Source of the DNA: Lophium mytilinum
Taxonomy: Eukaryota
NCBI GenBank assembly: GCA_010093605.1
Contig: MU004184.1
Location: forward strand, 692,801 to 756,800
Direction of reading: 5' to 3'
DNA: 64,000 bases
The position numbers were made by a program, and so were the translations under genes. The notes under the pieces are model-generated. The model made no database searches, had not been told where the DNA came from, and was given only the letters and a program-made list of their open reading frames with translations. Positions within the stretch are counted from its first letter, which is position 1, and each line of letters begins with the position of its first letter. Below, in pieces: positions 1,212-46,247 of this stretch.

Positions 1212-2794
1212 AGTGTCAAAAGACACACTCATCAAGCTCCCCAGCACATCGTACTGCACGTTTTCGCCGCGTGTTGACGAGGACCGGGGTTCGAATGCCT
1301 CGGTGATGCCTCTTCCAATTGCAACACCTACGATGGCTTCAAGGCGGTTGACATTGTCCTGCCATTACTGTCTGAACCGGTTGTTTGCAAACTCCCACCG
1401 CCAGGCTTCCCGTTCATCAACACATGCATTGTTTGCGACATTTGGCTTGTGGCGTTCAGGTGTTCTGTACTTGCTTTTGATTTTGGGAGGGCCGGGTGGT
1501 TTGCGAGTGCAGCGATTCCAGAGCTCGATCTGTCAGTCCCTACCATCATTGATTCCCCCCTCGCGACACGTTCGTGCTTTCCAAAGCTATGGTTCTGGCT
1601 GGCAGATTCTTCATGATACCTCGGATCATCTTGTTGGGGAGGTCTTATAGAGCGGTTTTGGTATTCTTCAGAGCGACATTACACAACACCCTACTGGCTA
1701 TCACCTACTCAACCCGCTGGGTGAAGGAGGCAGGCGCTTCACACCGGCATCAATCACATCACTACACTACACTACTACTACCATCGAGCGCGAGAAATTC
1801 TTGCGTCGCCACTTCCGGGACCGCGGTTAGGCACTCCCAATCTACCGCAGAGAGCATCTAATCACGAGAGGGTGGGTAATGAGTTCGACGGGTCGGGTTT
1901 ATATCCTTTTCCTTTTCAAGCTGCATGAATCTAATGAATTTGCGTGTTTGAGTGATTCCCTTAGATCAATGGTGTTTGCTGTTTGCTACTTGCTCTGATT
2001 CTCCACTTCTTTATGGGATTGTGCTGTTCTGTGTGAGCTGGAATGCAATGGAAATGGGTACATAGATGGCCATTGTGCAGCGTGGGGTTATTACTACATT
2101 GGAGGCAGATGGGATGGAATGACTGCTCATGCCGATGTCAGGGGCTGAACTGGGGGCTATGTTTTCATGGATCTGGCCAATAACGCTAATTGAATTCAGG
2201 GCCTGGCAGGAGGGCATGTAGTAGTAACAACATGGCTGTGCTTAGCATATGCCTTTTGTTTTATCGTTTTCTTTAATGCTTACCTACGATGTGCAGCCTG
2301 TCTATAGTAATCTCTGTGGGGTGCCAATTTCTGGTCCAGTTTGAAGAATCACGGAGTTTGACTCCTCAGTACCTCAGCATATCACATCTGCAATATGCTC
2401 AATTTGCGGCTCAAGGTGGAACGTCGAATGCGTTTAAATTGGATACGTTGGACCCTTGATTGGCCGAAGGGCGAGGTAGGTATTAGACTGGCTCCTATTT
2501 ATACATTCCTCCGACGACGGCCCGATTTTAACGGTCTCTACATTTAAGTTCGAATCTCATCGCAAACCGAGCAGACCAATCCGACTTCCTAACGTGTGTC
2601 TCCCAAGGTGACTAAATTGAGTAAAGCCTTTTGCTGACGTTCGGGAGCCAAGCTACGAAGCCAAGCTGGGAAGCCCATGCTGCATCTGTATCTCTATCAA
2701 TATTTTGAAGCCCCTCCAAATCCAAGCTCATACCCATATAAAGTCCACAATTACACAGCATAACGTTGAGAATCATCAGCGAGGTAATCGATCG

Positions 2795-4030
2795 TCAACC
2801 TTCGGGCTCCACTAACGGCACAGTAGATAGCATCCAATCCTCTGTAGAGGCATCTCCAGAATGCGGTCGCATCTTTCCGTGAAACACATACACATCAACA
2901 GTTTCCGTAGGCTTTTCCTCGTCCCCAGGAACTTGGAGGGCGGTCTGGCACCCGATGGCGAAGCCGGCATCCGTCATCAATTCGAAGAAGACAGCTTCGC
3001 TGGAATGGCGCACCTTCATGGCAACCAACACGATGGCTCTGGGAGACCTGTTTACCAGTGCAGAGAGCGTGCGGACGAGCGAAGGGCTGCTGTCCGCATT
3101 GTACGTACAGTCGGCTACGATTATCAGGTCCAGGGCTTTGCTCTGAACGTCTCGAGGGAGGGGCTCGTCCCAATCCAGGGTTGTGAATGAGACTGACGAT
3201 GACATGGCTGGCTTCATGATTTCAATGTTCCTAGCCACTATTTCTTCGGCTTCTGCGAGGTCCGTAAGGAGCACTTCACAGTCTGGGACGCTCTGCGCAA
3301 GGCCAATGCCAACCTGAGCCATATCAGTATAGCAGGGGTTTAGCAAAAGCCTCATATAAGATCTCTTACGATTCCACACCCTGTCCCAAGCTCCAAAACA
3401 CGAAGTTTCTTGTAGGTAGCAGAACTCAATACGCGCTCCAATATGTCCAGCCCATTGGCTTGGAGTGATACTACGCGGTCGAGATAGGCTGAGAGCGCGA
3501 TGCCGGCATCCCTGAGCAAATTTAGAAGCTGTTGACGACCAACAGACAAAGGAAGGCTACCATAGGTGCCGTGCTATACTCTCGCCGGTCTCCTCCCATA
3601 TACTCAGTGTCCGATTGTTCAACGGCATAAAACGTCTCTCAACTTTCTTCTCGGCGATATAAAGGCCGCTCGGGGGATCGATGATCCCACTCCATGCTGA
3701 AACAAGGCTGGGCAAGTCTGCATTCAGACTATAGTGCACCTCGAAATGATCCGACTCGGGGCTTCCTTTGAGGCTCACATGGAGTTGGGCCGGCCATTCA
3801 ATATCGGTGTGGCCTGTATCAAAAGCGACTGGGAGCGACCGCATGCCGCTCGTCCATTTTAGGACCTTGCGGAGGGCGATCTCGCCATCTGCATCAGCTG
3901 AACAGAGGGAGGCAACCAGGATGACATCTTCTGCCAGGAACGAATCGCCCAAGTCGGACGTGATGGTGATTAGAGCGCTCAAGGTGGTGCCTTGCAGGCG
4001 GGGCGGTTTGAGAAAGCGAATATACCGCAT
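2795..4030 (-). CDS. SAM-dependent protein methyltransferase, Methyltransf_16 (METTL21-like) family; exons 4030-3561, 3511-3370, 3313-2795
   Basis: Spliced product joins HLW-DAG, VLELGTGCGIV-GI (SAM motif I), LTDL, LDW and DLIIVADCTY. GT..AG junctions keep the frame. Confidence 0.9.
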
Positions 4031-4565
4031 CGCGGATTGCGGACGTGTGTGAAAATGAAGTTTTTGGTCTCTTTAAAGTGCCTCCGAGGGCGAATATGTA
4101 TGACGTCGAGTCGACCCAATTCACTTCAAAGCGTCAAGCCACTGCCGTTAGTTGCGAGAAGCTGCTGATGTGCCTACTACTCAACGGGTGCTTTGCGAAT
4201 GGATAGTTCTGGAGTCGAAGTCTGCATGTGACGGGCATCGTGGTGAATATGGCCCCACGTCGCGGTAGGTTTCAAAAGCGCCTTTGAGGATTTTGTGACC
4301 GACGTGCCTTTGTGTGCTGGAGCTAGATTCCAAGGTTGCTAGTATAGTTCTTGTAACTTTGAAGTCGACGAAAAGCCACATATCTACCCACGTTCCCAGC
4401 CATCTTCTTTCTTAGTGGAGGTTTCGTGGCCGTGCCTCCAGCTTGCTCCCCGCGCGGCTCTTTCACGGCACGCCTCGCGCCTCGCTCAACATCACACCCA
4501 CCCACACCTCGAGCTATCGCGACCTCCATGTATCGCAGGCCGGCACCTGCCCGCCCGCATCTGCA

Positions 4566-6047
4566 ATGTACCACCGAGGCGATCCACGCTGGACGCGGCG
4601 CGTCGACACCTTTGTGCACGGCATCGAGTCGGCCAACGAGTCGGCCCAGGCCAACCTCTTCACCTTCGCCCACAACTACATAGGGCCCTGTCTGGGTTCC
4701 GTAGGGAACGCCTTCCACTCCTGTACCTCCTCGTGTTTCCCCTCCCGCGACGACCGTCGCCGCCATCGAGGCCGGTCGCGCGGCCGAGCTGAGCTCAGCT
4801 TCGACTTCTATGACGACTGGGAAGAAGACGAGAATGATGGCCTGCTAGGGTGGGGGAACGACGAGCTGGACCGCCTGCTTGCCGGCTCGAGGAGTTATGG
4901 CGCTGCACAACCTGCGCGACAGCGCGCCATGAGCTATGGCACCAGACGGGACCGCGATGCTCGATTCCCAGGCGGACGCCGGAAAAGCGCTGTACAGCCT
5001 CATGATGGCGGCCCGGATCCTACCATAATCCCCAGCAGTTCCTATTTTGGCTTTTTGGGGAGGCTGCCCTTCAACATTGGGGGCAAGGGGCTTCGATACA
5101 AGCCATCAGCCGCAGACTTGACCGAACATCCGGGCGCTCTGCGCCGAACGGATGAGGAACAGCCATTAGTGGAAGACAGTGACGAGGACGAGGCCTCTGG
5201 GGAAGGGAGAAAAGGACACAGGCGGAAAAGAAGCCAGACGGCACTCTCAGGACACTCGGGGCACACCACGGACTCGTTGAGCTCAAGAGGAGATCTCTTT
5301 CCCAGCGAGGACGAGGACGACGCTATACCCTTGGACGATGAGTTCACAATGGCGTTAGAGCGGCGGCAAACTGGGCTGGGAATGGACGACACCAGTAGTG
5401 GGAAGACGAAGTCGTCCAAAGCAAGACCGGCTGGTTCTCGCCTGTCGACCCGGACAGTCTCGTCGAGAAGCACGCACGAGTCGGGACGAAGAAACAGAGC
5501 AAATTCGCAAGTTAAACATCGTGATCCGGGGATTGAGGAGGTCCCCTCCTTGTCCGACCTCAAGCAGGAGGACGAGCGTGTGCGACTAGAGGAAGAAGCG
5601 GAGGTCGAGAGGAAACGCCATGAAGCACGTCAAGTAGCCCTCAAGCGGGGGCTGAGTGTGGATCATTTCGTAGTAAGTTATGGGATAGTGGGCACTGTGT
5701 CTTCACCGCTGATGTTTGAATAGCCATCTGAGAGTAAACATGACATTGCGGTACTGTCGCCGTCAAGTTTACCGTCCCAGAAGAGCTCGAACCGTCAGTT
5801 TTCATCTCCTGTGCTTTCTCCACAAACCGTCGAACCCCCGCAAACCCCCGCATCCATGCCATTCCCGACTTTCGACTCTCAAACTGCTCCAGAGAGCGGT
5901 GCCTTTGACATGGAAGGATCAGAGTTCTCAAGTGCTGTCCCGACACCAAACAGGCCGCTCTCACTGAGACACGAACCAGCCCAGAGTCAACCGACTTCCA
6001 CGTTTGTTCCCGCGCGACTCCCGCATTTCGCGCCTGGACCGGATTGA
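4566..6047 (+). CDS. Fungal hypothetical protein, largely low-complexity/disordered; exons 4566-5672, 5724-6047
   Basis: Long ORF from ATG 4566 (MYHRGDPRW...FDFYDDWEED...GLRYKPSAADL...DLFPSEDEDDAIPLDDEF). GTAAGT donor at 5673 and TAG acceptor at 5723 join in phase with the 5811-6047 ORF. Confidence 0.8.
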
Positions 6048-6920
6048 ACGAGAACATATAGTTCAGTGTATTATCACCGTAGTCTCGAGATCTACCAGCT
6101 CCAGGCCAGGCCTTGCGACAGGACTTCACCAAACTTGAACAAGGTAGTGGCTTATTCGAGAACCACATGATCTTATCTCAGGGTATGACGTCCTGCCGAT
6201 CAGCGGCAGCAGGAGAATCCTTGATGGGGTGTTCTAGGAGCTAGCCGTTCCTGTAGCCCTACGTTCTCTGTGGACACAAAGCTCCCAGTCGAATCTGGGA
6301 ATGAGTCTCCCTTCATGATCCTATTGAATCGATCCATTCAATTTATCTTCAATCCGACACTTCGGTTCTAGCGCGATGTCAAACATTAGCCGCATGCTAG
6401 CCGCTAGCCACGACGTCAATGAGATTTGAGCTTTGGAAGTTCCAGCATAATATTGTAGTCAATATCACGGACTGAAGCTTTCGAATAGGTACCTAGGCTA
6501 TGTTTACCTAGATGAAAACAAGTTTCACCTGAAGCATTATTGCTGTTGCGACGCATATGTTACTAGTACGGAAATCATTCCATGTTCAAAGACACTATGC
6601 TAATGGCGTGAATTTTGGATCTTCATGTTCAACTGTGATATTGTGCTCAAGCCCACGTCCCAGTACTGGAGCCCTGAGACTCGTATATACTTGTCTTCAT
6701 GAGATCGCTCGGAGCTTCGTCGATCGTGCAAGGACTGTCGTTGAATCGACTTAGGTGTCTACAAGTACAGAGAATCAGTTCACCCCGCCCAGACCGGAGG
6801 AAAATTTTACTATCCAAGCACAATATGTGAACCAGGCGCAAGTAGTCTCAAGCAAAACATGTCTTTGTAGTCTACTCCGCACAAAGAGAGGAAATAAAGA
6901 GTTCGGGCAAAAGGAAAGAT

Positions 6921-7037
6921 AGACCCAAGCGGGAATCGAACCAGCAAAAACTCGAAGGGGTGCGCTGATACCGCATCCCTAGACTGATGAGTGAAATGCA
7001 ACGAAGATTCATCGAGTTACCACTCGGCCATCAGGTT
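6921..7037 (-). ncRNA. tRNA-like Pol III element (aberrant tRNA, tRNA pseudogene or tRNA-derived ncRNA); no anticodon assignable
   Basis: On the minus strand: A box TGGCCGAGTGGT, B box GGTTCGATTCC, imperfect acceptor stem AACCTGA/TTGGGTC, T-stem GCTGG/CCCGC and a T-run just downstream. D-stem and anticodon arm are non-canonical. Confidence 0.55.
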
Positions 7038-7541
7038 CAGTGTTGTTACAGCGAGCCGCCCTTGGAGTTCTGGGAGCTGTTCGAAGTTAAATGGTATATA
7101 ACCTATAAAGTCTGTTAGGCCTCCACTAACAAGATATTTTAGCGGTTATTCACACCGACGCTCAGCGCCGATTAAGGCTTGCACGTGCAATCTTACGTAT
7201 CATCCGGAGTAAAGCAGCTGCGCCTCGCGTGTCTCTGAACCGTATATGCAGATTGGAGATACTACGGTTTGCGCAAGATATGCCACCCTCCCACATCCAG
7301 ACCATCTTCGCTTACAACCCTCAACAAATCAGACTGTCATCAACAAAGACACGGCAAATGCAACGTCTGGTAATTACTACATGTCGACCTACTCGGCACA
7401 TCACTTTCCTGAGTTTTCTGCGTGTCTGTGCCTTCGAGGATGTGGCATGTCATTTTGCTTGCGCCCAGTGCGCCCCGTGCGATGACGGGTTTGGGCGGCG
7501 ATCTGTGGATTGCGGATTGCGACGTGCGATGCTCGGGTAAG

Positions 7542-8150
7542 TCAGCGTGGCGAGGGACGTTCGGGCGGAAAGCGGTGGTTGTTGCGAGGGGTGGGGAGAT
7601 AAACAGGTGAGGCCAGGTTAGGTGATTCTCTGTTAGTCACGCTGGGAGTATATGATGCGATTTTGGAGGAGGTATAAAATAAGGTTGAGGGCTGTATAGT
7701 ATTGGACTCTTTATTGGAGGATAGGAGGGGGTTTAGGATCAAAATAACATGGGCGGAGTAACTATGTGGGGGAGTGCTGGGCGGGTTTGGGTTTAACTTG
7801 AATATACTTTGGGATATATGGCTGTGGGGTTCTAGGAGGCAGATGGACGGGTTATTGGGATGGAGATAAGTGGCTTCTGTGGGTAAGGATGGTTGTGGTT
7901 AATCTTTTGTTTCGCTGATTATCACTTTTATAGATGGAATGGAGGTGATTAGCGTTGTTGACGTTTGGTGGCCTTTATTATTCAGGCTTTTGATACTGCC
8001 AACTTCTCTGACAGCAACATATTTGGTTCGAAGATCTGTTTTGCACGACCCAGCCCCGAGCCGTGTAAATGCTGCGGGTTTTGGGTTCACTTGATGCTCG
8101 AGCTCGTCTTCTCTGCTTCTCCGTTACGAGGATGGAGCACATGGTTACGA
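7542..8150 (-). pseudogene. Probable RIP-degraded ORF remnant next to the repeat element
   Basis: ORFs 7899-8090 and 7542-7742 share one frame that is open between them except for a TAA at 7899-7901. The + strand is C-depleted and the translation is rich in N/K/I/S, as expected from G>A changes on the coding strand. Confidence 0.4.
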
Positions 8151-8566
8151 GGTTAGACACACGGATATATCACTTCTCTAGTTCGCCTCTTCATTACTCG
8201 ACATCACTGAAGATAGGTACGTAGTGAACGAAGATTAGCTTCATCAATAAGTAATTTAATCTCTACTTTATATTACTCCTACCATCGCCTATTACTGTAA
8301 TCTCTCGCTCGACGACCTCTTTCGCGTAGAACCTGTCTCCTAGTGTACAACTATCTTCACCACCTTCCCAGCGCCTCAGTTCAATCCATTTCACCGACAA
8401 CTCCTTGTCAATCACACACACAAGTCAGATCTCCGCTTCCTCTTTCAACCCCAAAGAATTTTCTCTTTTCAGATCTTACTCGGGATGTGTCTTTCATACT
8501 CTAATAAATTAAAGAAAAGAAGTCTCGTAACTCGAAATATGAAAGCAAAGCCACTCCCCACCAACT

Positions 8567-11500
8567 ACGCGGCAATCCGCAGCGCTTAATGTTTGCGTAA
8601 TCCGCAGTCTTTTCGCAAACTTTGCCTTGTGCGTAATGCTTAGAAGTCCCAAGGTCCCCGGACTGAAAAGAAGATTTGAATTGCTTCTCGACTGATTACG
8701 CGGCAAAAGGTACAAAAGCAATAGCTAAGTGGCTACGTCCTCCCTACGTGTCAAACTTTGGCGTGTGTCTTAGACGTGCTAGATGGTTCTTTGCCGCCTA
8801 CCAAAGCATGTAATATAGGAAGATTAAAGGGGGTAATGTTATTCAGCCCTTTACTTTAAGGGAGATTATCTAAGCGGCTATATATTCCCTGCGTGCCAAA
8901 TCTTAGCGTGGTCTTCAGATATATTAGACGGTTCTATACCACCTCCCTGCGCACGTAGTATAGTCAGGACAAAGGGACGGAGCGGAAAGGGGAGGGGGGG
9001 TATAGATAATGGTATCTAAGCAGCTATTTCTTCCCTGCATGCCAGATTTTAGCCTATTTTATGGGCGTGTTAGATAGTTCTTTGCCGCCTACTAGCGCAC
9101 GTAATATAGACAGGATAAAGGGGAGGAAGAGGGGTGTAGGGAAAGAGGGGGGAGAGGGGTTTAAATTATTATTTATAAGCGGCTATATCTTCCCTGCGTG
9201 CTAGACTTTAGCGTGGTTCTTAAATATATTAGATAGTTCTTTACCGCCTACGAGCGCACGTAGTATAGTTAGGACGAAGGAACGGAGGGGAAAGGGGAGG
9301 GGGGTATAGATAATAGTATCTAAGCGGCTATTTCTTCCCTGTATGCTAGATTTTAGCCTGTTTTATAGGCGTGTTAAATAGTTCTTTACCGCCTACCAGC
9401 GCATATAATATAGACAGGATAAAGGGGAGAGAGAGAGGTATAGGGAAAGAGGGGGGGGAGGGGTTTAAATTATCATTTATAAGCGGCTATATCTTCCCTG
9501 CATGCTAGACTTTAGCGTAGTTCTTAAATATGTTAGATAGTTCTTTACCGCCTACGAGCGCATATAATATAGACAGGGTAAAAAGAAGGGGTATAGCGCG
9601 GGGGGATAGGGGTGCATAGATACTAATACCTAAGCAGCTACTTCTTCCCTGCGTGCTAGATTCTAGCGTGGTTCGCGGATGTATTAATTAGTTCTCTACC
9701 GCCTACTAGCGCACGCAACATAGATAGGATAAAGGGAAGGGGTAGGGCGCGGGGGGGCAGGAGTCTAGATACTAATAGCTAAGTGGCCACGCGTTCTCTA
9801 GATGCTAAACTTTAACAGTGTTATTAGATATCTAAGACAGTTTTTTACGGCCTACCTGCGCGCGTAATATAGGCATACTAAAGGGGGAAGGTTATTAGGG
9901 GATAAGAATTCAGCCCGTCATTTATAAAATATAAGGTAAGTAGCTATATCTTCTCTAGGCGCCAAACTTTTACATTGTTATTAAACGTCTAATACAGTTC
10001 TTTTCCGTCTCTCTGCGCACGTAATATTGCCAAAAAAAAAAAGGGGGGGAGGAGGGGGGGTAGCGTGGCGTGTAGAATCCAGCCCGTCTCTTATAGAATA
10101 ATAACTAAGTAGCTATTTCTTCCCTAGATGCCAAATTTTAATAGTGTTATTAGATACTTAAGAGATTCCTTTGCCGCATATCTGCGCACGTAATATAGAA
10201 AAGATAAAAGGTATAGTAGAAGAATCTAGCCCGTACTATATAAATAATAGCTAAGTAGCTATATCCTCCCTACGTGCCAAATTTTAATAGTATTATTAGA
10301 TACTTAAGAGATTTCTTTACCGCATATCTACGCACGTAATATAGGAAAGATAAAAGGTATAGTAGAAGAATCTAGCCCGTACTATATAAATAATAGCTAA
10401 GTGGCTATATCCTCTCTACGTGCCAAATTTTAATAGTGTTATTAGATACTTAAGAGATTTCTTTACCGCATATCTGCGCACGTAATATAGGAAAGACAAA
10501 AGGTATAGTAGAAGAATCTAGCTTATACTATATAAATAATAGCTAAGTGGCTATATTCTCCTTACGTGCCAAACTTTAACATTACTATTAGATGCCCAAG
10601 ATAGTTCTTTGCCGCCTATCTGCGCACGTAATATATAAAGAGTTGAAATAAAGAAGGGGGGCTGCGAGGCGCTGGGGCGGCGGGCGCCACTCTAAATAAT
10701 AATAGCTAAGCGGCAGCGTCTTCTCTACGTGCTAAATTCTAGTATAGCGATAAGACGTCTAAGACAGTTCTCTTCAATCTTGCAGGCGTCTATTCGGGAT
10801 TAATTTAAGTGAGGTATATGGGTTCGGGGGTGAGAAGAAGGCCCAAAATAAACAAAGGTCAGTCAAAACACTCTCGATTACGCGCATTTCTCGCAGTTAG
10901 TGTTTGCAAGAGTTGCAGCCTCTCTACGAACTTTCCCCGTATTCCAAGTTGAAAGAAGCGAAGGAGGGGAGGCAGGGAGGGGAGGTCCGAACGCAACGAA
11001 TGTGAGCTAATTTGTGTTCTTTCCAATTACACGGAAATTTCTTGTGCTCAATATCTATACGATTTCCAAGCTTCGTACCAGTTTGCCGTGCAGTTAGGGC
11101 TAGTATGCTTGAGAAAGGGGGGAGAGGGGGAGGCTCCTAAAGGCAGTGCACGCGAGGGATTTTATTCTCCGGCTAATTACACGGAAATTTCCAGTGCTTA
11201 ACATTTACGTATTTCACAGCTTATTCATAAGTTTGCCATGTATCCAGAGCTAATAGGACCGAAAAAGGGGGGAAAGAGGGAGGATTTCCGGAGTGGATAT
11301 ATGTAGGCTAATCCATTCTCTTTCTAACCACGCGGCAATCGTTAGTGATTGATCTTTACAGTCTTTGCAATCTATCTACAGTTTTGTCGCGTATTCGAAG
11401 TTAGTCAGAGTGGGGAACGGGGGGGGGGATAGGGGAGATCGGCTAAGTATTAGGAGATGAGCATGTAGGTAAGCTGTTCGGAGGTCGAATGCGCGGCAAT

Positions 11501-12796
11501 TGCTAAATCTACTTCTTGTGAGTGATATAGCCTTCCTGGGAACTTTGCCGCGTCTTTCGACAAGCGTTTAAGAGTCAGTAAATCACTGTTCAGCCAGCTA
11601 GGGCGAAGGAATTCTCGTCTTTCAAATCGTGACTTAAAAAGCCTCTCTACGTGCGCACCTACATGGAAATTCCCTCCTACGTACTATATATTATATCTGA
11701 ATGCTTTGCGCGCTTGAATTGTATGCTGAAGTTTATTGCAGCACTAAAAGAGGTAATTTAGTCCCTATTATTTAATAAATATAGAACGTAGAAAAAGAAC
11801 CTATATACTCTACTACGCTGTAAATACTCTTTATACTTTCTATTTTCCATCTATAAGCTTTGCCGTGTAATATATATGCTAAAAGTAATTGCAGGTCTAA
11901 TAAAAAAGAGGTCGGGGGCTAAGAGAATTTCCGAGCTTAAGAGTACTAGAATGTAAGAGCTTACTGCGTGCGTAACAACGCGGTAATTGTTCCTTGGGTA
12001 GTTTATCTTCCTTCGGCGTCATTTGCGATCCAGAATGTGCCTGTAGAGGAAATAGGGACGAAGGAACCAGCTGGCTGGGACCGCGGGCCGACCCGCGGAT
12101 ATTCAAAGCCGGCAATTTAGCACCCAATCTACGCGACAATCGTTCTTTGAGCAATTTGCATCCTATTGGTAAAGTTTGGCATCTAGAAGATGCTTGTAGA
12201 GCAATTAACGGTGAAGCGATGACCGGATGGCCGGATGCGGTCGCTGTGCCTGATGAGGATATCGGAAACTGCCTTTTCATTACCAAAGCTACGCGGCAGC
12301 TGCCCTTCAAGTGGTTCCTCTTCGTACGATAAAATTGGCGCTTTTACTTTCGTACAGATGGAGGTTATAGGGTTAAAATGGCGAAGAAGTGTCCAGACTT
12401 GAGAAGCGCGGGCTAGAATGGCGAGCAATCTACGTGCGCAGCCATACGTCAATGATTCTCTACGTGATTTTAAATCATTAGCTAGATTTTGGCACTTAGG
12501 GTCCTAATTGCGCACGTAGAACGAGTCCTCGGGGTAAGAAGTGGCTCCAGGAAGCGCGGACCGAAACCGTTGGCAATCTACGTGCGCTACAAGACGGCAA
12601 TGATTCCTTACGTGCTTAGTTATCTCCACTGAGATTTTGGCACCTACAAACCCAGTAGCGCTCGTAAATAAGTCTTTAGGGCAAGGGGCTGCTCTACCTA
12701 AAGAGCGCAGACTAAGCCCGCTCGCACTTCACATGCGCTACAACGCGGCAATGATTCTTCATATGCTTCGTAACCTCTGGCTGGTTTTTGGCACCT
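8567..12796. repeat. Degenerate tandem array of about 28 units (period about 145-170 bp), each with two inverted half-sites separated by 35 or 44-45 nt
   Basis: 14 clearly related units start at about 8725, 8870, 9016, 9175, 9320, 9479, 9630, 9779, 9936, 10105, 10251, 10397, 10543 and 10706. More divergent units lie at 8567, 10880, 11029, 11179, 11330, 11491, 11661, 11815, 11978, 12131, 12291, about 12441, about 12592 and 12743. Confidence 0.9.
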
Positions 12797-13506
12797 GGAG
12801 TCCTCGGAGCGCACGTAGAGTGAGGCTCAGTATAGAGGGCTCCTGAATCTGAGGAGCACGAGGCATAACTGCTCGTAATGTCACTTTGAAGGCTACCCCT
12901 CGGCTCAAAGTTTTAAAACCTGATCATGAAATCTAACGTGTTTCTCATTTGTGCTCAGCTACCTCCGACACCATGAGTGACAATTAACCTCGTGTAACAG
13001 AAGAACCTTGGATGTTGAAGTCAGTGTTGATATGGGCAGCGCTGTTTGCGCCTTCGGTAAATGCCCGCTCCTATACACCACAAAGTAAAAGGCAAAGTGA
13101 GTACGCTTCCGGCTATAAATCCGCTTAACCAGACATGCCAGACGAATTTCCAGATGCAATGTTGGGGGAAAGGAGAAGGGAGGTGAGCGGGGGAAAGAGA
13201 CACAATCGTTGACAACACTGAGATTTAGCCTTGCTCTGTCTATTGTTAGAGTGCGTTAAATGGAAAGTGAGGAGAAGCGTACCCAGTTGTGAATCTACCA
13301 ACATGTCTCCATAAGCTCCGCATCTCCAAAGAGGTTCCACTTTGCCTGCTGAAGCCTGGTCTGTATGAAGTGTTTCAAGAGGTCCAGGGGTATTCTCGTA
13401 TGCTTGCGAGTGATCAAATGCGATGAGGTGGTAAGTGAAAGTTAAATGTGAGCATTGGCGTTGTTTGGGGTATATACTATATTTAATTTTGTCAGCCTCT
13501 ATCACA

Positions 13507-13613
13507 GCAGTGCAGATGGGTCCTGTCCTCATCCGCTGCACCAATTAAAGCATTGGTAGCATTGTCCTCTATCCCGGGCGCAGTGCAGGTGGGTCCTGTC
13601 CTCACCCGCTGCA
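13507..13613 (+). repeat. Two direct copies of a 34-bp hairpin-forming unit
   Basis: GCAGTGCAG(A/G)TGGGTCCTGTCCTCA(T/C)CCGCTGCA at 13507-13540 and 13580-13613; the copies differ by two transitions. Confidence 0.85.
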
Positions 13614-13802
13614 ATAAGAACCCAAAAGCCACTATCTACCCACGAAAGTCCTCTGCTCAGGCAGCGAGGCGGTCCGGGCTCTAGAGGTGATGTTACCCGT
13701 GTTCGATTCCTACTAGCTTCGCTATTTCTTTTTGCTTTTTTTTGCGTTTCGATACTCTCGGGTCCGTCATTCACTACGCACCGTACGTACACTTTACTTT
13801 TG

Positions 13803-14542: not shown

Positions 14543-15663
14543 TCACGAAAGCCATCCAACCTGCGGCGTCATCGCTCCACCATCCGTCGCGGGATCTGGC
14601 TTTCCGAACAAGTTCCACTCCGCCTGCTGAGCTAGCGTCTTCCCGTAAAGGAACTGCATGAAGTCCCATGCGAAACATCCGTTGACTGTCTGTGCAGACA
14701 TACTGTCGATGACATCCTGGTAGCACATCAACTGATCTGCTACGGAACACGCGAGCTGGAACACGCAATCTTTGGGCGGAGAGGGTCCGCACTCGTACCC
14801 GGCGTTGATCACGCTGACGAACCCTTCGACTCCGTAGAGCTTCTTGAGAGACCGAGCCTCGAGCCGTCGCACGACCTTCTGTTGAATATTGGCCATTTCG
14901 AACAATGAGGCTACACCCTAAATCAAGCAGTATAATGCCAAGGTTGCATTTTCTTCGTTTCCCGTCGTGTAGTCTGTCGGCACTTAGCGGTCCCGTGAGC
15001 GATCCCGTGGGTACGCAAAGTATCGAGCTAGCGCGCAGTCTGGTATAAGGAAGCCGGTGGCCATGAATTCAAACACTCTGTCGAACGCAATCGGCAAGTC
15101 GATCTTGGAATCTGAGCTTACGGTCATGACTGGGACGCTGTTGCGTATTTCTCGAGTCTGTGGGAACGCTGGTCAATATACGGTCTCAATTCTAGATCGA
15201 CAGGGAAGGTGTAGACCTACTATGTGTTCGTGGGTCTTTTTGGACTTCTATAGGATGTTAGCGATACTCGGAGAGGGCCTTTGTGCTCTGTGGTGGACCT
15301 ACTCCGAAGGTTTCTAGCTCTCGCTAGATGACGGGCGATTGTAGTCGTACGTCGAACTTGTCGAGACACCAGTGATACTGACCGTAGACAACCATGAGGG
15401 TATGGATATCGCCTTTCAACAGCTTCAAGCCAGCAGTCCTAGCATTTGTTAGCCGTTACGTGCCATGACTCGAGTACTTGTATGCTCATCGCTTACTCTG
15501 TAGGCCGCCATGCATCTGCAACGCCCGGCGGCAGCTTGCCTAAGTGCCACGGGCCAAAGTCGAAGTGGGAGTCTGCGACCCGATCCATTAACTGCCGGTA
15601 CGCTGGCAGCTTGATGCCCGAGTTGGACGCGTTGCCCGTATCGTGAATGTCGTTCACCTCCAT
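14543..15663 (-). pseudogene. BTB/POZ-domain-like gene with premature stops (probable pseudogene)
   Basis: ATG at 15663 and an intron GTAAGC...GCTAAC...TAG. Exon 2 reads LKGDIHTLMVVYGQYHWCLDKFDVRLQSPVI*RELE, with TAG at 15324-15326. Later segments are AFDRVFEFMATGF and FEMANIQQKVVRRLE...FVSVINAGY, resembling fungal BTB proteins, with further in-frame stops. Confidence 0.5.
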
Positions 15664-16704
15664 GGCAGGCAGAGGGAGAGGGGATAGACTCAGTCAGCAG
15701 TGTGAGTCGATTTTGGATGGAGGTGGATGTTTTGGCCTCGGGCCTCAAGGTCGAAGAAATTGACGCGATTGCCAAGCAACGGAGTTTTGATAGTGAAAAG
15801 AGAGTTGGTTTCGCGCCAACACCGAATCACACCTGCACTCATTACACCACTGTTTGGAGGCCGTCGACACGTTCTCACGCACTCTAGACTCAATGCGATC
15901 TACCGGCCAAATTGAACCGCGGTGATACTGGATGGAAATCCCTTACCCCTGAATGATACGAGGATGCGCTATTCCATGTATCAGAAGACCCAGTAGAGTG
16001 GCTGGATGGGATAGCGGGGGATGAGAGTGAGCTTCGACTTGTCAAAAGAAGTCGCAGGCGGCCACATATACCGCTGTGAAATGGGATGCTCGAATTTGGT
16101 AGAGTGGACGAGGCGAGATATGAGGTTGAAAATGGAGTGACATTGGGGGAGGTGTGATATGCAGAGTCCGGATTCCTTGAGGCTTCAGATCAGGACAGCG
16201 ATACTAACGTATTGCAATCAAGATAATCGAGCCCCCTTGGCCATACCGTTTGAGAAGTGATGTGGATGTGCATTCTTGAGGCTTCAAATCGCACTATGGA
16301 CCTGACGTTATATGAAAGACACGAGAGTCCACTAGGAAGGCACAAAACGAATCAGAAATCAAAAACACGAAGCTTGATTTAAAGGGCTACAACATTTTTG
16401 TATGCACTGGTTCTACACAAAAGTCTATATACGGTATTGCAATGCAAGAGGTGGATGTGACGCCAGAGGATACGTTCAACAACAAACTAACAACACCCAG
16501 TATTACCGTCGCCAAACGCCGCGCCAACGCACGTGGAGCGAGACCACTATACACAGAAGTCCGCTATGATTATGGCTAGACTTAAAGAAAAGAAAAGAAT
16601 GAGGGAAGCGTGGCTCCTACAGAATACCATAATTATCAGTGACGCCTCATTACGGCACGGCTCCATCCACCGAGGAGCTTGTCGTGCCGTCGATTTTCAG
16701 CCGC

Positions 16705-19700
16705 TCACAGCGAAAACCGGCTTGTCGTCGCCTTCTCGTCGCTCTTATATTCGCTGTTGTAAATGCTGCTGCTTCCACTCTGCGGGCCGCTCTCTGGGCC
16801 GCTCCATTCCACGCTCTTGCCCTCTTCGATCATGTCCGCACTCTCCCGCTTCGATAGTAGGTCGTCTGGGAAGGGAAACAAGGTCCGCCGTCTAGGCGGG
16901 TTCTTCTCACTAGCACTCAACCACACCTGCTGCGTGATGTCTTTGCCCAACGCCTCGATGATTGGAGTGACAATTGGAAGGGAAAGGAAAAGAACCGCAT
17001 AGCTGGAGATGCCAACGATGGCGACATTGATGCCATAATTGAAGCCACGCGATGCGAGCAAAACCATGAGCCAAGAGCCCCAGCTCCAAAAGACGAGACC
17101 GTGGAGAAGGTAGATGGTGAAGATGTGAGGGAAGACGAGAAGGAAGGCCTTTCGGCTCAACAGCCACTGCACTGCTGGGGATATCTCCACAATAGCCTGC
17201 ATACCAACTGCGAATAGCAGACCGTTGAGACGAGGCACGTAGTAAGCTGGGTATCCCGCGTTGTCAGTGCGCGCGAGGGGCTCGCCCGAGGGCACATCGG
17301 GGTGGATGTTGTTTTCATAGGTGGCGAAGTTGAAGTCGGTCCAGTTGGGAATTACGTTTGAGGAGAATCCCAAAGCGACGGACGTCCAACATAGAAGAAG
17401 AAGCGGGTAGTAAGCATAAGCGCGGGAGTAGAGCCACGGGCGCCACTTGTAGGTGACGTCGAGATCGGCGAGCATGAGACCAAGCCATAGGTAGCTGCCC
17501 CATGATTGCGCATACCAGTGATTTACGACAACAAAGGCATAGTAGCAGAAGCGCTTCCAGGCGGTCTTCATCTCGTATACGACGACAACGCCGAGGAGGA
17601 CGAGCCAGGATCCTTGAAGCTGCACTGCGATCGTCCAAAGAACGCCCGTGCAGTAGTTGAATGTGATTTGAGGAACAGCATTCGGGATGAGATAGATAAG
17701 CTCGAGGACCTCGCTGATGTAGTGGCCAAACGTAGGAAAACGTGCCACGTATGGCCAGGTGGACCAAGAGATAGATGGCGTGTACTCAAGGAATTTGGTT
17801 GCGCCACAATCGATGACGAAGTACTCGAAGAGCACGACCGTTGACACGGGTATCATGAGACGCGGAGTTCGTCGTACAGCATTCTGAGCAATGTCTTTCA
17901 AGTTTCCACTCTTGAGGTACTTGGCGACCAAGAAACGAGTTGAGGTTGTGAAGAACACACCAAGCCACATCTGGTTGAGGATGAAAGGAGAAACAATTTT
18001 CTGGGCCCAGTACTCGCTCTTGTGATGGAGCGGAGCGCCTGGAATGACAATGGCAGGAACATAGGAGAGACCAAAATGCATGACCGTGACCAGTATCGCA
18101 CAGATAGCGACGAGGCCGGCGAGATAATCAATGCGCTGTCTGGGAGGATGGACAGTCATACGCGGTGCTGGCAGAGCAGATTCAGTCACAGTCGACATAG
18201 GAATCTTGCCCTCGGCACGATCTGCTGCCGATTCGTGGACTTCCAAGGTCTTTTCCGATACCATCCCGGGCGACTTTTGGTATTCCGCAATTCGGTTTTG
18301 ATGAGAGTCTGGAAGTGGGATATGTTCCCTGGTAGTGTTGAAATGGCTGGAAGAAGCGGAGTATGGCGTCGTCGCCCTCGGGGTTGTTGCTCGACTATCC
18401 CATTTCACAGAGGCTGTTTGCGATGACTGTCCGCCGTACATGGACGAGGCGCTGTATATCGAGGGTTGGCGACTTGGACCAATCTGCTCAATTGCCATAT
18501 CGTCTTCCTCTCGTTTAACACCGAAGTCGAAGCTGGACTTCTGGGCTGGAGTCGTACCGCCAGATGCCAAGGTGTCGTTCGAGCTAGCCACTTCGGGTAC
18601 GGCCGGTTCCGCTGACGGTTGGCCATGACCGTGACTAGCTGAGGCCAACTCCTTTCGCCAAGGTGCGCGGCGCAGGAAGGCGTGCAGGAGCAAAAGAGAT
18701 GAGAATGCAATGCAGATGACCGATATCCATAGTGCGGGCATCCTTCTGATGCTTTTGTGGCTAGCTTGCTCCCATTTCTTGGTCGCAGCTTCATCGTGCG
18801 GCGTGGACCCACGAATGGTGATATCATCCATGGAGCAAGCGTCTGTGAGGGGACAGCGAGAAACGAATTCGGTGTGCTGTTCCACGCTCATGGTCGAAGA
18901 GTTGAAGAACATGCGCACCCATGCCACACTGGCTACAGATTCCCTTTTGGGAGGTCCTTCCATGGAATATTTGTTGCCAGTCGACCAATGCTTCAGATAG
19001 AACGGAGCTGGAACAGAGGGCATGCCCTTGTTGTCTTTGTGCAAGACAGTCCTGGTGCAGTTGCCCCCAATGTAGAAATTGATGTACTCCTTCGTCCAGT
19101 CGATGCGGTATTCGGTGTAGTCCCAAGCATCAACGCTTCCGTTAGTGGCGGAGTTGGCCAACGTGGTGTAGTTGTGGTTCGCAGACGCATTGTGGCTCAG
19201 ATCGGTGTAGTTCATCCCCAAGTTTCGAGTAGGGAATTCCCCGCTGACGAAGGTGCCAATCCAGGCTTCGTTGGCTGCGTCCGTATTCATGACGCTTAAT
19301 TCGGTGGATTCGGTGTCGTTGTACTGAAGCATCATGGACATGGCGCTGCCGCCGATTCTCTGTGGTGGCGATTTGATCAGGGAGCGGAAAGAGCCATACT
19401 GAATGTCCTTTCGAACAGTGTGCATCCCGCTGCCCACAACAAGGTGGACATCAGATGACGGTTGGAGGTGGAAGTCCAGAGAGCCCTTTTCATTCAATTG
19501 AAGGTTTTTCGGGTCCGCACCCTGGCGGTAGATGGCATTCCAGTCTTTCTCGTAGTTGTTTGAGTATGACTCCTCTTGGAAGTCGGGTAGTGGCAGACCG
19601 CTGGTCTCGTTGAAGTAGACAATGATGGAATCCGTAAATAGCTCCTTCGTGGAGGCATCGTAATACCCGCAGGAACAGTTGTTGCCGTTGCCGCCAGTGA

Positions 19701-19776
19701 CATCTGCTCGTACCGACGCAAAGGAAAGCAACGCCAGAGAGACAAAGGAAACGAAGGGAGTTGATCGGGGAACCAT
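16705..19776 (-). CDS. Membrane protein: signal peptide + GH16-like (ConA/jelly-roll) domain + TM helix + low-complexity linker + acyltransferase-3-like multi-pass domain
   Basis: Intronless 1023-aa ORF. Hydrophobic N-terminus followed by CSCGY. GH16-type segments RKDIQYGSFRSLIK, YTEYRIDWTKEYINFYIG and PSVPAPFYLKHWSTGN. AT3-type segments RIDYLAGL...HF, GVFFTTS, AVRRTPRL and GVLWTIAVQLQGS. Confidence 0.88.
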   Translation of the reverse strand: MVPRSTPFVSFVSLALLSFASVRADVTGGNGNNCSCGYYDASTKELFTDSIIVYFNETSGLPLPDFQEESYSNNYEKDWNAIYRQGADPKNLQLNEKGSLDFHLQPSSDVHLVVGSGMHTVRKDIQYGSFRSLIKSPPQRIGGSAMSMMLQYNDTESTELSVMNTDAANEAWIGTFVSGEFPTRNLGMNYTDLSHNASANHNYTTLANSATNGSVDAWDYTEYRIDWTKEYINFYIGGNCTRTVLHKDNKGMPSVPAPFYLKHWSTGNKYSMEGPPKRESVASVAWVRMFFNSSTMSVEQHTEFVSRCPLTDACSMDDITIRGSTPHDEAATKKWEQASHKSIRRMPALWISVICIAFSSLLLLHAFLRRAPWRKELASASHGHGQPSAEPAVPEVASSNDTLASGGTTPAQKSSFDFGVKREEDDMAIEQIGPSRQPSIYSASSMYGGQSSQTASVKWDSRATTPRATTPYSASSSHFNTTREHIPLPDSHQNRIAEYQKSPGMVSEKTLEVHESAADRAEGKIPMSTVTESALPAPRMTVHPPRQRIDYLAGLVAICAILVTVMHFGLSYVPAIVIPGAPLHHKSEYWAQKIVSPFILNQMWLGVFFTTSTRFLVAKYLKSGNLKDIAQNAVRRTPRLMIPVSTVVLFEYFVIDCGATKFLEYTPSISWSTWPYVARFPTFGHYISEVLELIYLIPNAVPQITFNYCTGVLWTIAVQLQGSWLVLLGVVVVYEMKTAWKRFCYYAFVVVNHWYAQSWGSYLWLGLMLADLDVTYKWRPWLYSRAYAYYPLLLLCWTSVALGFSSNVIPNWTDFNFATYENNIHPDVPSGEPLARTDNAGYPAYYVPRLNGLLFAVGMQAIVEISPAVQWLLSRKAFLLVFPHIFTIYLLHGLVFWSWGSWLMVLLASRGFNYGINVAIVGISSYAVLFLSLPIVTPIIEALGKDITQQVWLSASEKNPPRRRTLFPFPDDLLSKRESADMIEEGKSVEWSGPESGPQSGSSSIYNSEYKSDEKATTSRFSL

Positions 19777-21417
19777 GGTGCCAAAAGAGTGTGGACAGGG
19801 AGTCGCTGGAGGTGGGTAGAGGTGCTGTCAGAGTGCCTCCCACGGTATGCTGTTCCGGGCCCGGGGTGCTTTTGCATGCGTGAACGGCTATGAACGAGCA
19901 CGTTGGCAGACGTCAAAGGCTGAAATGCTCGGGGCTGAAATGCTCCTGGGCAACGGCTGGAGGCGCAAACCGGAGATTCAACGATGGCCGATCCACATGA
20001 GGACAGCACGCTTCCGGACTTTGGGAGGAGCCGAGCAGTGAGAGGAGAGAGCAAAAAAAGGCCCGCACATAAAGCTCAAACGGGACGGTTGATAGGAAGA
20101 AAGGCGGTGATTCAGGTGATGCCTGCAACTTCAGAAGAGACTTCTGCGAGACGGCCCAATTGCACCACAGAAGCAGCGTTCCGCCAACAGCATGTACAAG
20201 TACCGTCTTGCTGCGTCGTCTCCCTTGCTGGCTTGAATGCATGCACCGGAGAGCACACAAGCTTGGCTGGCCGAATTGGGCGCCGCCTGGGATCCCCCCT
20301 GAGCACGGGCGGCGGGCATTTCATGGCTGGCAAGCGGAAACATGACGGTGGAGACAGAGTGGAGAGGATGCAGAGACGGGTTGGGAGAGGCGCAGAGACA
20401 GCGCAGAGACAGGCACGGATCGGCGTGGTGGTGAGCCAGGGGAGCTTCGGCGTGGTGAGGCGTGAGAGGTGTGGTTGGAGTGCTCCCTGGGCGTGGGAGA
20501 TGCCCTGGCGCACATCCCGTTCCTAGCGCCAGGAATTCCTCGCCAAGGCTTCGCTGCATGCTCTCTGCTGCTCTAGGGATAGTGAGGCGTATAGTGATGC
20601 ACAGTGCCGCCGGGCGAGCCATGCGTTGGGGGAAACTAACCACGTTGCCCCGACTCAACACCATCTGCAACAGCAAACCGTACCACGCAACACCACAGGC
20701 CCCCGCATCCGTCCCCCCCGATGCGGCTGCCCAGGCCTGCTGCCACACCCTGCCACACCCTTCGGCCGGTCTTCGATATCTTAGCACCACCGAAAAGCAT
20801 GCTCCCCCGGCACCGTGACGCATCGTCGTCGCTGTCGTCGTCGTCGTCGCGTTCGACCCATGCCGCAATGCAGAGTCTTTCTAGCAGGTAACTACCGGCG
20901 ATGCATCCGCACGCCATGACAGGATTAGATCGACAGCGATTGCGCTCCAGCTTCACCCAGCATCCACCCAGGGCGGCATGCGTCCCCCCGGGTGCCCCTA
21001 ACCGTCTACGTCAGGTACTCAGCGGCTGATGAGGTACACGGAAATTCGTCGTCGGAAGCGCTGATAGCAGCTGCTGCAGCGCTGATCCTCTGCAGCATGC
21101 CCACCCTTGTCTTATTGTTTTATTTCTCAACACTATCAAAAGTCACCTTTCGCACCGATTCGTCCTTCTCTTTCTCGTTATCGTCCGTCTTTACACCACC
21201 CTGTCACTCGTTTTTGTTCATTTTTGGGTTGGTGATAGAGTGCTGTTCGGTCCTTGACATACCACTACACATGCCGACTCTACTACTATAATATCCACTT
21301 TTCAGTTGCTTCGTCCTTCTAGGGTACCACCGGCCATCATTCTTTCTGGCCAGCCCATTCCATCGTTTATACTTGGTTTCAACCTTGACACTCTCGCTGA
21401 GCAGTTCCACGGTCAAC

Positions 21418-45079: not shown

Positions 45080-46247
45080 CTACTCCTCCATTCCTTCCGC
45101 CGGATTCCCCGGATTTTCTAGCTTTATTCCCTCTGCCTCAATATACTGGAAGAAAACTATCATCCGATCGTCCAGGCCCTCCCACCGCGAATAGACTTGA
45201 CGACACTTATACAAGGCCGCTTCGTACTCCACTCTGCTCCAGCCCTCCCGCAGGAAATTCGCCTGCATCTTCTCGAGCGTTAGGGTCATTAACTCCGGCA
45301 TCTCGAATGCGGCCGCCGCACCAAAGAGCAGGATGTGGTGGTGTAGAGGCGAATTGTACGAAGAGCGGGCGCCGTTGCTGCTGCGAGAAGCGGAATTAGC
45401 CGACGCGGCTGGGTCGCGGTCTGAGTAGTCGCCTGAGTACGCGAACTCGAGACAGCTCTCGATGATGGTAGGAGTATGGTCGGAGATCGTGCAGCTACCG
45501 CCAGGCTAGAGAGGAGCATCGTTAGTGAGTCAATCCAAAGCTGTCACCGGGAAGATGGCAAGCTTACTGTTAAGTCCTGCGGAAGTAAACCTCTCGCGCG
45601 CGTGGTAATGATGTTAAGGTGGACGTTCCATTCTATGCCTGCACATCGGATGCTGTAGTCGCTATACGTGCCATTGTGGAGAAGCTTCAAGAGCTGGTCT
45701 CTGGGAAGACTATCAGACTATGGTAGGACGAACATCTTTGGGAGGTGGCTTACTTGCTAATGGTGCTCGATTGCTGCTGCGTCTTCATCCCGGACGCAGT
45801 GTGTGCCTTCTTACGCCTTCCCACATCTTCTGAGGGTTCCTCTCGCTCACGCTTCTTCCCGCGCGAATGCTCTCCCCCAAACAATGTAGGCTGATATGCA
45901 TTCTGCTGGGCCCCAGTCAAGCTAGATGACGACTCATTGAGAGAAGGGAGAGTGGGATATGCTACGTTGCCACCAACGCTCGGAGCGGAAGGGGTATGAG
46001 CAGCGGTTGGAGTGATCGCGGCGTCCAGCATCTCTACGCTACCACTGGTATCACGGTGAGTAGAGGGACCAGATGTAGCGGCCGAGAAAGTCGTAGAAGT
46101 CGGTTCCGCAGATGCAGCGGTATCCCCAGGTATGGGGTTTGTGCGCGAATGACCAGACATAGACTTATCGCCATCCGAGTCTGAGTCCAAGTCTGACCAG
46201 TAGTAGTCGTCGAACCCGTAGGTGAGCCCGACGTTTTCGAAGCCCAT
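45080..46247 (-). CDS. BTB/POZ-domain protein (3 exons)
   Basis: Exon 2 LLHNGTYSDYSIRCAGIEWNVHLNIIT and exon 3 ISDHTPTIIESCLEFAYSGDY...HILLFGAAAAFEMPELMTL follow the fungal BTB pattern; introns start GTAAGC. Confidence 0.75.

What the first reader, a model, noticed from the sequence alone, without database searches (positions are those of the whole stretch)
8567..12796. About 28-unit array of inverted half-sites with quantised spacing (35 or 44-45 nt) at near-nucleosomal period
Seen: every unit carries ACGYGSCAA...TTTGSCRCGT-like inverted half-sites. Hand counts give a 35-nt gap in a representative 8725-10790 unit and at 11661, 11815, 11978, 12131, about 12441, about 12592 and 12743 (12291 is about 34-35). 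The gap is 44 nt at 11029, 11179, 11330 and 11491 (about 44 at 10880; 45 at 8567), roughly one helical turn longer. In the 10.9-12.8 kb units the enclosed and linker sequences are largely unalignable, yet half-sites, gap length and the 145-170 bp period persist. Inference: neutral satellite decay should erode gap length along with sequence, so this looks like an array of sites for a dimeric DNA-binding protein, recombinase or transposase, or a nucleosome-phased structural locus. I do not recognise it as a described fungal element.
Basis: partly seen in the sequence, partly recalled or inferred. Interest (0 to 1): 0.82.

Follow-up and report, generated by a model that had tools for sequence, protein, structure and literature searches.

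The report
Fungal repeat array keeping spaced boxes
Between the tail ends of two fungal genes lies an old row of 28 copies of a roughly 150-base non-coding unit that has kept a short mirrored DNA word and its exact spacing while the rest drifted, most likely as docking sites for an unknown DNA-binding protein, though no function is shown.

Summary
The array is real: 28 units, 8565-12820, period 145-179. Each ~90-bp core holds up to four copies of an 11-bp box (CTACGYGSYAA), arranged ->-> <-<-. The inner gap is 36 nt in 21 of 22 short units and 44-46 nt in 6 long units. Two sister arrays exist (C9, 13 units; C4, 5 units); all three lie between convergent genes. Constraint holds up: held-out C9 units show 2 transversion steps in 18 half-site columns against 48 in 36 enclosed columns, and 3 indels in 40 units against 27-37 expected. 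Corrections: the long class is one related clade (about one insertion), so 'quantisation' rests on one event. The 14 middle units are inverted, RIP-hit and alone show no box constraint. Periods are not helically quantised, there is no RNA fold, and no transposase or recombinase lies nearby. Best reading (0.5): a dispersed satellite-type family of rigid protein-docking modules, partly decaying. Rivals: amplification-dependent survivorship (0.22), neutral decay (0.15).

The parts
8565..12820 (.). Whole tandem array, 28 units plus one interrupted unit, mean within-block period 153 bp
8565..8632 (-). First unit, long-gap class (46 nt), related to units 10878-11489
   Evidence: (z 5.5 to 10878, 8.9 to 11177)
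8696..8706 (-). Orphan left box of a unit that the middle block interrupts (inferred)
8725..10772 (+). Middle block of 14 four-box units (box1-8nt-box2-36nt-box3-2nt-box4), inverted relative to the right block, RIP-marked, closest relatives in the C9 array
10780..10790 (-). Candidate right box of the interrupted unit (degenerate; inferred by eye)
   Evidence: sequence printed
10878..11555 (-). Five long-gap units (44-45 nt), one related group with a net ~9-nt insertion near the left box; orientation rests on weak likeness to unit 12129
11647..12820 (-). Eight short-gap units of the right block; the last three carry an outer inverted repeat (12 nt perfect at 12429-12440/12509-12520); related to the C4:572.6-573.3 kb array
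4416..7758 (+). Left neighbour: expressed, spliced gene without Pfam match, 3' end facing the array (context)
16383..19827 (-). Right neighbour: GH16 glycoside hydrolase gene, 3' end facing the array (context)

Best explanation
An old, low-copy, dispersed satellite-type family whose ~90-bp core is a rigid DNA docking module. A sequence-specific protein reads the 11-bp box, probably as a dimer or pair of dimers that bends or wraps the core. The inner inverted pair (47 bp centre to centre) and the outer boxes (12-13 and 19-20 bp further out) must keep their geometry, so boxes and core length were held by selection while enclosed bases and linkers drifted. Units multiply by local tandem duplication; blocks moved or inverted between loci by ectopic recombination; RIP erodes recent expansions, and the 14-unit middle block may be partly dead. 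The likeliest role, given the tail-to-tail position, is a chromatin barrier, organiser or decoy platform rather than a promoter. SHOWN: architecture, three loci, constraint on boxes and core length, RIP signature, no coding or RNA-fold signal. INFERRED: protein binding, oligomeric state, route of spread, role.
For: In 26 M units, 8 observed vs 24.5 expected under homogeneous GTR, 0 of 1500 simulations as low; p=0.019 even against the best any two 9-mers. R family (13 units): 15 vs 54, p=0.025 (these units were partly recognised by their boxes). Identity between M and R subfamilies 0.61-0.67 in half-sites vs 0.31-0.34 enclosed. Enclosed indels 3 in 40 units for 137 transversion steps vs 33-37 expected from six paralogous flank fragments (46 gaps, 448 substitutions, 171 transversions) or 27 from other tandem repeats (115/585). 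Linker length differs in 17 of 24 closest-pair comparisons, core length in none. Four boxes share one motif. Left and right boxes keep fixed differences and are no more complementary within a unit than between units (5.60 vs 5.61): sequence read-out, not hairpin repair. No RNA fold. Both orientations in one array. 3 of 3 arrays between convergent genes or ORFs.
Against: The window's middle block alone has no transversion deficit (7 vs 15, p=0.54) yet still no core indel, so low indel counts are not tightly tied to box constraint; C9 half-sites are not spared transitions (25 in 18 columns vs 48 in 36). Eleven sister pairs: transversion ratio 0.5 (p=0.017), all substitutions 0.82 (p=0.15). The exact box is not enriched genome-wide (57 hits vs 78 for the reversed control), so it is not a common transcription-factor site. 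Other short-unit arrays in this genome are also gap-poor (L029: 2 gaps per 68 transversions; L015: 12 per 160). Linkers contain G-runs that slip easily and their alignments are rough (the aligner also opened 3 compensating gap pairs in cores). No binding protein identified; no relative genome available to test conservation.
Confidence: 0.5

Rival explanations
1. Selfish amplification: the boxes are cis sites of a transposase, recombinase or rolling-circle protein, and only units with intact boxes and spacing get copied. Constraint is survivorship; copies decay neutrally afterwards (MITE- or Helentron-like miniature element in tandem).
For: Asymmetric bipartite inverted ends resemble transposon ends (recalled). 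Constraint is strongest on deep branches and weak or absent in the youngest block. Three unlinked loci. The middle block's junctions fall within about 18 and 8 nt of boxes; junctions at conserved boxes are reported in nematode satellites (PMC3694981, passages).
Against: No solo copies or half-elements: box3-box4 and box1-box2 patterns with up to 3 mismatches list only array loci (28 and 14 hits). No shared flanks or terminal repeats among the three arrays. No transposase, Rep or recombinase Pfam hit in 28 + 84 ORFs. Five mutually distant units at 11659-12289 still keep gaps of 36, 36, 36, 36, 35. With boxes covering about 44 of 150 nt, junctions near boxes are expected by chance.
Confidence: 0.22
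2. Neutral old tandem repeat: one of many decayed duplications in this genome; apparent conservation comes from mutation bias (RIP, context effects), low indel rate outside homopolymers, and short-tract conversion at the few places still alike.
For: Old tandem duplications occur in each of nine 10-kb stretches checked. RIP signature in the middle block (TpA/ApT 1.54, (CpA+TpG)/(ApC+GpT) 0.69 vs 0.69 and 1.23 in the rest of the window). Middle block shows no half-site constraint. The long class has about one origin.
Against: RIP makes transitions (established knowledge), yet the deficit is in transversions. Homogeneous-rate simulation is rejected even for post hoc windows. The conserved stretches are four copies of one motif. 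Indel deficit about ten-fold against two in-genome controls.
Confidence: 0.15
3. Nucleosome-phased structural array: one nucleosome per unit, boxes presented at fixed rotational positions.
For: Mean period 153 bp; 11-bp A/T periodicity in M cores, p 0.004-0.013 by column permutation; the long-class insertion aligns as 10 nt.
Against: Six of 24 within-block periods are 145-146 bp, no longer than a ~146-bp core particle (PMC4938642, passage). No 10-10.5-bp quantisation of periods. Periodicity is weak in R units (p 0.06-0.16), peaks at 11 not 10.2, and comes from one ancestor.
Confidence: 0.08
4. Array of structured RNAs or an RNA scaffold.
For: Quasi-palindromic cores; a CT-rich leader-like stretch at 8280-8520 (sequence).
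Against: RNAalifold gives 0 consensus pairs; mean folding z +0.06 and -0.25 over 28 units; no Rfam match at E<=1; no tRNA; units in both orientations within one array.
Confidence: 0.05

Closest known systems
Satellite DNAs with a conserved box (CENP-B box; Meloidogyne Box 1/Box 2; PMC3694981, passages read)
   Same: Tandem non-coding monomers that diverge strongly while a short box stays; blocks of different monomers joined near boxes.
   Different: Here four copies of one 11-bp box in inverted, rigid geometry; about 47 units at three gene-rich intergenic loci; nothing suggests a centromere; no binder known.
Candida albicans MRS/RPS repeats with COM29 (PMC6896093, passages read)
   Same: Fungal, dispersed on several chromosomes, sub-repeats of about 80-170 bp sharing a conserved short sequence, function unclear.
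   Different: No resemblance of the box to COM29 as printed there (by eye); no 2-kb higher-order unit and no shared flanks like HOK/RB2; arrays are 0.7-4.3 kb, not about 50 kb; host is a filamentous ascomycete.
Helentron/HINE (DINE-1) non-autonomous elements carrying tandem repeats (PMC4067079, passages read; PMC7492417, search listing only)
   Same: Short inverted repeats of 11-15 bp; dispersed ~150-bp tandem arrays.
   Different: The inverted boxes are inside every unit, not at the ends of a carrier; no shared termini or 3' hairpin around the three arrays.
MITE-derived or subterminal transposase-site arrays (CACTA, Foldback; recalled)
   Same: Multiple short sites in direct and inverted orientation.
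   Different: No TIRs around the arrays, no solo copies, no transposase nearby.

Membership tests
Dispersed satellite-type tandem repeat with conserved box | Head-to-tail non-coding monomers of similar length | tested here: met
Dispersed satellite-type tandem repeat with conserved box | Short segment conserved beyond the monomer average | tested here: met
   not met within the window's middle block alone
Dispersed satellite-type tandem repeat with conserved box | Protein shown to bind the box | not testable with these tools
   needs EMSA, pull-down or ChIP
MITE / non-autonomous TIR element | Dispersed solo copies with TIRs and target-site duplications | tested here: not met
   patterns list only the array loci; no shared flanks
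MITE / non-autonomous TIR element | Autonomous partner with the same ends | tested here: inconclusive
   none beside the arrays; no genome-wide transposon census was possible
Helentron/HINE | Shared subterminal inverted repeats and 3' stem-loop bounding the array | tested here: not met
   flank comparison of the three arrays found only chance-level matches
Helentron/HINE | Rep/helicase partner in the genome | tested here: inconclusive
   PF14214 no hit, but the controls were silent too
Tyrosine-recombinase core site (lox/FRT type) | Inverted binding elements 6-8 bp apart (recalled) | tested here: not met
   inner gap 36 or 44-46 nt
Tyrosine-recombinase core site (lox/FRT type) | Linked recombinase gene | tested here: inconclusive
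   none near the arrays; DUF3435 no hit with silent controls
Structured ncRNA array | Conserved, covarying fold or Rfam family | tested here: not met
Candida MRS/RPS | COM29 box, 2-kb RPS unit, HOK/RB2 flanks | tested here: not met
   unit and flanks differ; COM29 compared by eye only
Nucleosome-phased array | Positioned nucleosomes in register with units | not testable with these tools
   sequence proxies mixed
Repeat-protein ORF (intact or RIP-broken) | Frame-preserving period and open frame | tested here: not met
   4 of 24 periods divisible by 3; 71-103 stops per frame

The most novel reading that the evidence does not exclude
This is one member of an undescribed, recurrent class of cis-acting elements in filamentous ascomycetes: arrays of rigid multi-site protein-docking modules, each family with its own motif, placed in tail-to-tail intergenic DNA and kept by selection despite RIP. 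They would act as chromatin barriers, pairing or replication-origin platforms, and this family's 11-bp box would be read by a dedicated, possibly transposase-derived protein.
Probability: 0.27. Interest if true: 0.75.

Novelty: new variant of a known kind. Interest (0 to 1): 0.45.

Why it matters
Filamentous fungi with RIP are thought to carry little functional tandem repeat DNA outside rDNA and telomeres, and their insulators and replication origins have few defined sequence elements (own knowledge). A repeat whose boxes and geometry resisted transversions and indels over long times gives a concrete 90-bp probe with natural spacing variants (36 vs 45 nt) to find the binding protein. If the class suggested by the unchecked scan notes holds, it would be a new layer of fungal intergenic elements; if binding fails, it is a useful case of how old repeats mimic selection.

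Tried and rejected
Rfam at gathering score on the window: only U2 at 47353; at E<=1 on the three array loci: 0. ARAGORN: 0. Consensus fold: none. Hairpin or cruciform repair as the keeper of the arms: rejected. Repeat-protein ORF: rejected. Perfect inverted pair with gap 20-60 anywhere in the genome: 0 exact matches. Metagenome scan with the box3-box4 pattern: 11 loci, each a single match limited to the pattern. Viral scan with the inner pair: 11 single matches, 0 HMM hits. Paralogous flank loci L011-L014, L016, L017 carry no family unit. The array in L015 and the repeats in L029-L037 are other families. Helitron_like_N and DUF3435 searches were blank with silent controls: uninformative. Expression: no RNA holder listed; RNA-type contigs of run X3 cover 2500-7758 and 16383 onward, with zero depth over most array bins and unexplained depth in bins 9013-9513 and 10015-10515; no conclusion drawn. 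Linker homology could not orient the blocks. The genome could not be scanned with a profile model, so more divergent arrays may be missed; a branch-by-branch test of constraint was not done, which leaves survivorship open. Nine literature searches listed no description of this element or motif; the library lacks most subscription journals and I opened no supplements.

Full report
Setting. The window is G000:C4:692801-756800 of a 43.4-Mb, 49-contig genome. Its genes are fungal; the IDH1 subunit's best named match is Coniosporium apollinis at 98%, then Phyllosticta at 96%, so the host is a filamentous ascomycete, probably a Dothideomycete (inference from one conserved protein).

Observation. The units are there. 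Anchoring on 11-bp boxes, the window holds 28 units from 8565 to 12820 with periods of 145-179 bp. A PWM pair scan finds gap 36 eighteen times and gap 45 four times in the array, and no gap more than 3 times in 50 kb of the rest of the window (PWM trained on the units). DNA contigs span both block junctions without differences (possibly the assembly's own sample).

Anatomy. An iterated profile shows a ~90-bp core with four boxes of one motif, CTACGYGSYAA-like: box1, 8 nt, box2, 36 nt, inverted box3, 2 nt, inverted box4, then a 47-80-nt linker. The array has three parts. The 14 middle units (8725-10772, 'M') match the profile on +; the right units ('R') match on -, so they are inverted relative to each other. 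The six long units are related to each other inside the gap (z 3-9 for several pairs, near 0 for some) and align to R units with a 10-nt insertion and a 1-nt deletion. The M block appears to sit inside a long/R-type unit whose left box is at 8696 and whose right box may be at 10780 (by eye). So there are two gap classes and about one event separates them: 'quantised' cannot be claimed from one event.

Family. DNA search finds two more arrays: C9:995-997 kb (13 M units plus a degenerate first unit) and C4:572.6-573.3 kb (5 R units). Patterns for box3-box4 (28 hits, control 12) and box1-box2 (14 hits, control 0) with up to 3 mismatches list only these loci. The single box is not enriched genome-wide (57 vs 78 control). 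The three arrays share no flanks. Each lies between genes or long ORFs whose 3' ends face it: here a spliced + gene whose RNA contig ends at 7758 and a - GH16 gene; on C9 a pectate-lyase-like - ORF and a 482-aa + ORF without Pfam match; on C4 a ribosomal protein L5/L11-type gene (+) and a - FG-repeat ORF. No transposase, Rep or recombinase domain was found in 28 long ORFs of the window or 84 shorter frames around the arrays. No array was found in 11 metagenome or 11 viral pattern hits.

Is it constrained? I counted transversions because RIP makes transitions, and the M block is RIP-marked. In 27 M units: 10 steps in 18 half-site columns vs 70 in 36 enclosed (p 4.5e-5). Simulation under homogeneous rates on 26 units (junction unit 10725 left out): 8 observed, 24.5 expected, 0 of 1500 as low, and p=0.019 against the best any two 9-mers. 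R family: 15 vs 54 (p=0.025). Length: 37 of 40 short-class units at three loci have gap 36, i.e. 3 one-base indels for 137 transversion steps, against 33-37 expected from six paralogous flank fragments and 27 from other tandem repeats in the genome (115 gaps per 585 transversions, one row duplicated). Linker length differs in 17 of 24 closest pairs, core length in none.

Results against. The window's M block alone (13 units) gives 7 vs 15 (p=0.54), and C9 half-sites are not spared transitions. Sister pairs show a weaker deficit: 0.5 for transversions (p=0.017), 0.82 for all changes (p=0.15). The M block keeps its core length without detectable box constraint, and some other short-unit arrays here are also gap-poor. 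Old tandem duplications are common in this genome. So the constraint is clearest on deep branches; whether it still acts on every unit is open.

DNA or RNA? No consensus fold, mean folding z near 0 on both strands, no Rfam or tRNA match, no excess complementarity between the arms of one unit, and both orientations in one array. Left and right boxes keep fixed differences at positions 4, 6 and 8, as expected of a degenerate protein site. The array is not coding.

Nucleosomes and helical phase. Periods are not quantised at 10-10.5 bp, and six of 24 are 145-146 bp, about the ~146 bp of a core particle (PMC4938642, passages). M cores show an 11-bp A/T periodicity (p about 0.01), weaker in R units; it is post hoc and from one ancestor, so only a hint of bending or wrapping.

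Mechanism. Most likely (0.5) each core is a rigid docking module for a sequence-specific protein, multiplied by tandem duplication, moved or inverted by ectopic recombination, and eroded by RIP in recent expansions; a barrier, organiser or decoy role between convergent genes is my guess. From memory the box contains pieces resembling ACGT-core (bZIP/bHLH), ACGCG (APSES) and GGCAA (RFX half-site) motifs; none was tested. Rivals: boxes as cis sites for the copying machinery (0.22), neutral decay with mutation bias (0.15), nucleosome phasing (0.08), RNA (0.05).

Comparison. It works like satellites with a conserved box (PMC3694981, passages) and resembles in outline the Candida RPS/COM29 repeats (PMC6896093, passages); it fails membership of MITEs, Helentron/HINEs (PMC4067079, passages), recombinase core sites and RNA families. 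Nine searches listed no description of this element; the library is partial and no supplements were opened. Earlier scan notes, unchecked, describe box-keeping arrays with other motifs in this genome and between convergent genes in other fungi; none matched this family by sequence or place. They are leads, not support; the word 'docking' and the idea of a recurring class come from them.

Verdict. Real, constrained, non-coding, family-specific; new variant of a known kind; interest 0.45.

Noticed in passing
window 6690-6861, 6903-7260, 7442-8120, 13392-13781, 15713-16178: The flanks are a patchwork of 170-700-bp fragments with 70-81% identical paralogues at five other loci (plus a second copy of 13509-13691 on C16), suggesting frequent dispersed short duplications in this genome.
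   Followed up: partly
L009 2700-3310 (C9, about 0.7 kb from the sister array): A second, unrelated ~161-bp repeat with direct and inverted copies; 1 gap per 18 transversions in the best pair.
   Followed up: partly
L015 2270-5340; L029 5183-5927: Other array families (108-140-bp and 208-bp lags) that are also gap-poor, unlike the ~400-bp-unit repeats in L032 and L035, which carry many gaps.
   Followed up: partly
window 14546-14917 (-): 124-aa frame with a 28% identical paralogue in L017 and no Pfam hit; no RNA contig cover; possibly a gene fragment.
   Followed up: partly
window 45203-45502 (-) and L010 6121-6558 (-): Paralogous frames (31% identity); they look BTB/POZ-associated to me (recalled, no Pfam hit).
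   Followed up: no
window 47353-47564 (+): U2 snRNA gene (Rfam RF00004, 88 bits).
   Followed up: no
window 11272-11324: A linker with a purine-rich then pyrimidine-rich half forming a 15-nt, 80% inverted repeat; several other linkers show the same compositional split.
   Followed up: no
window 8867-9737: Higher-order 304-bp dimer (145 + 159 bp units) inside the middle block, a sign of recent unequal crossing-over.
   Followed up: no
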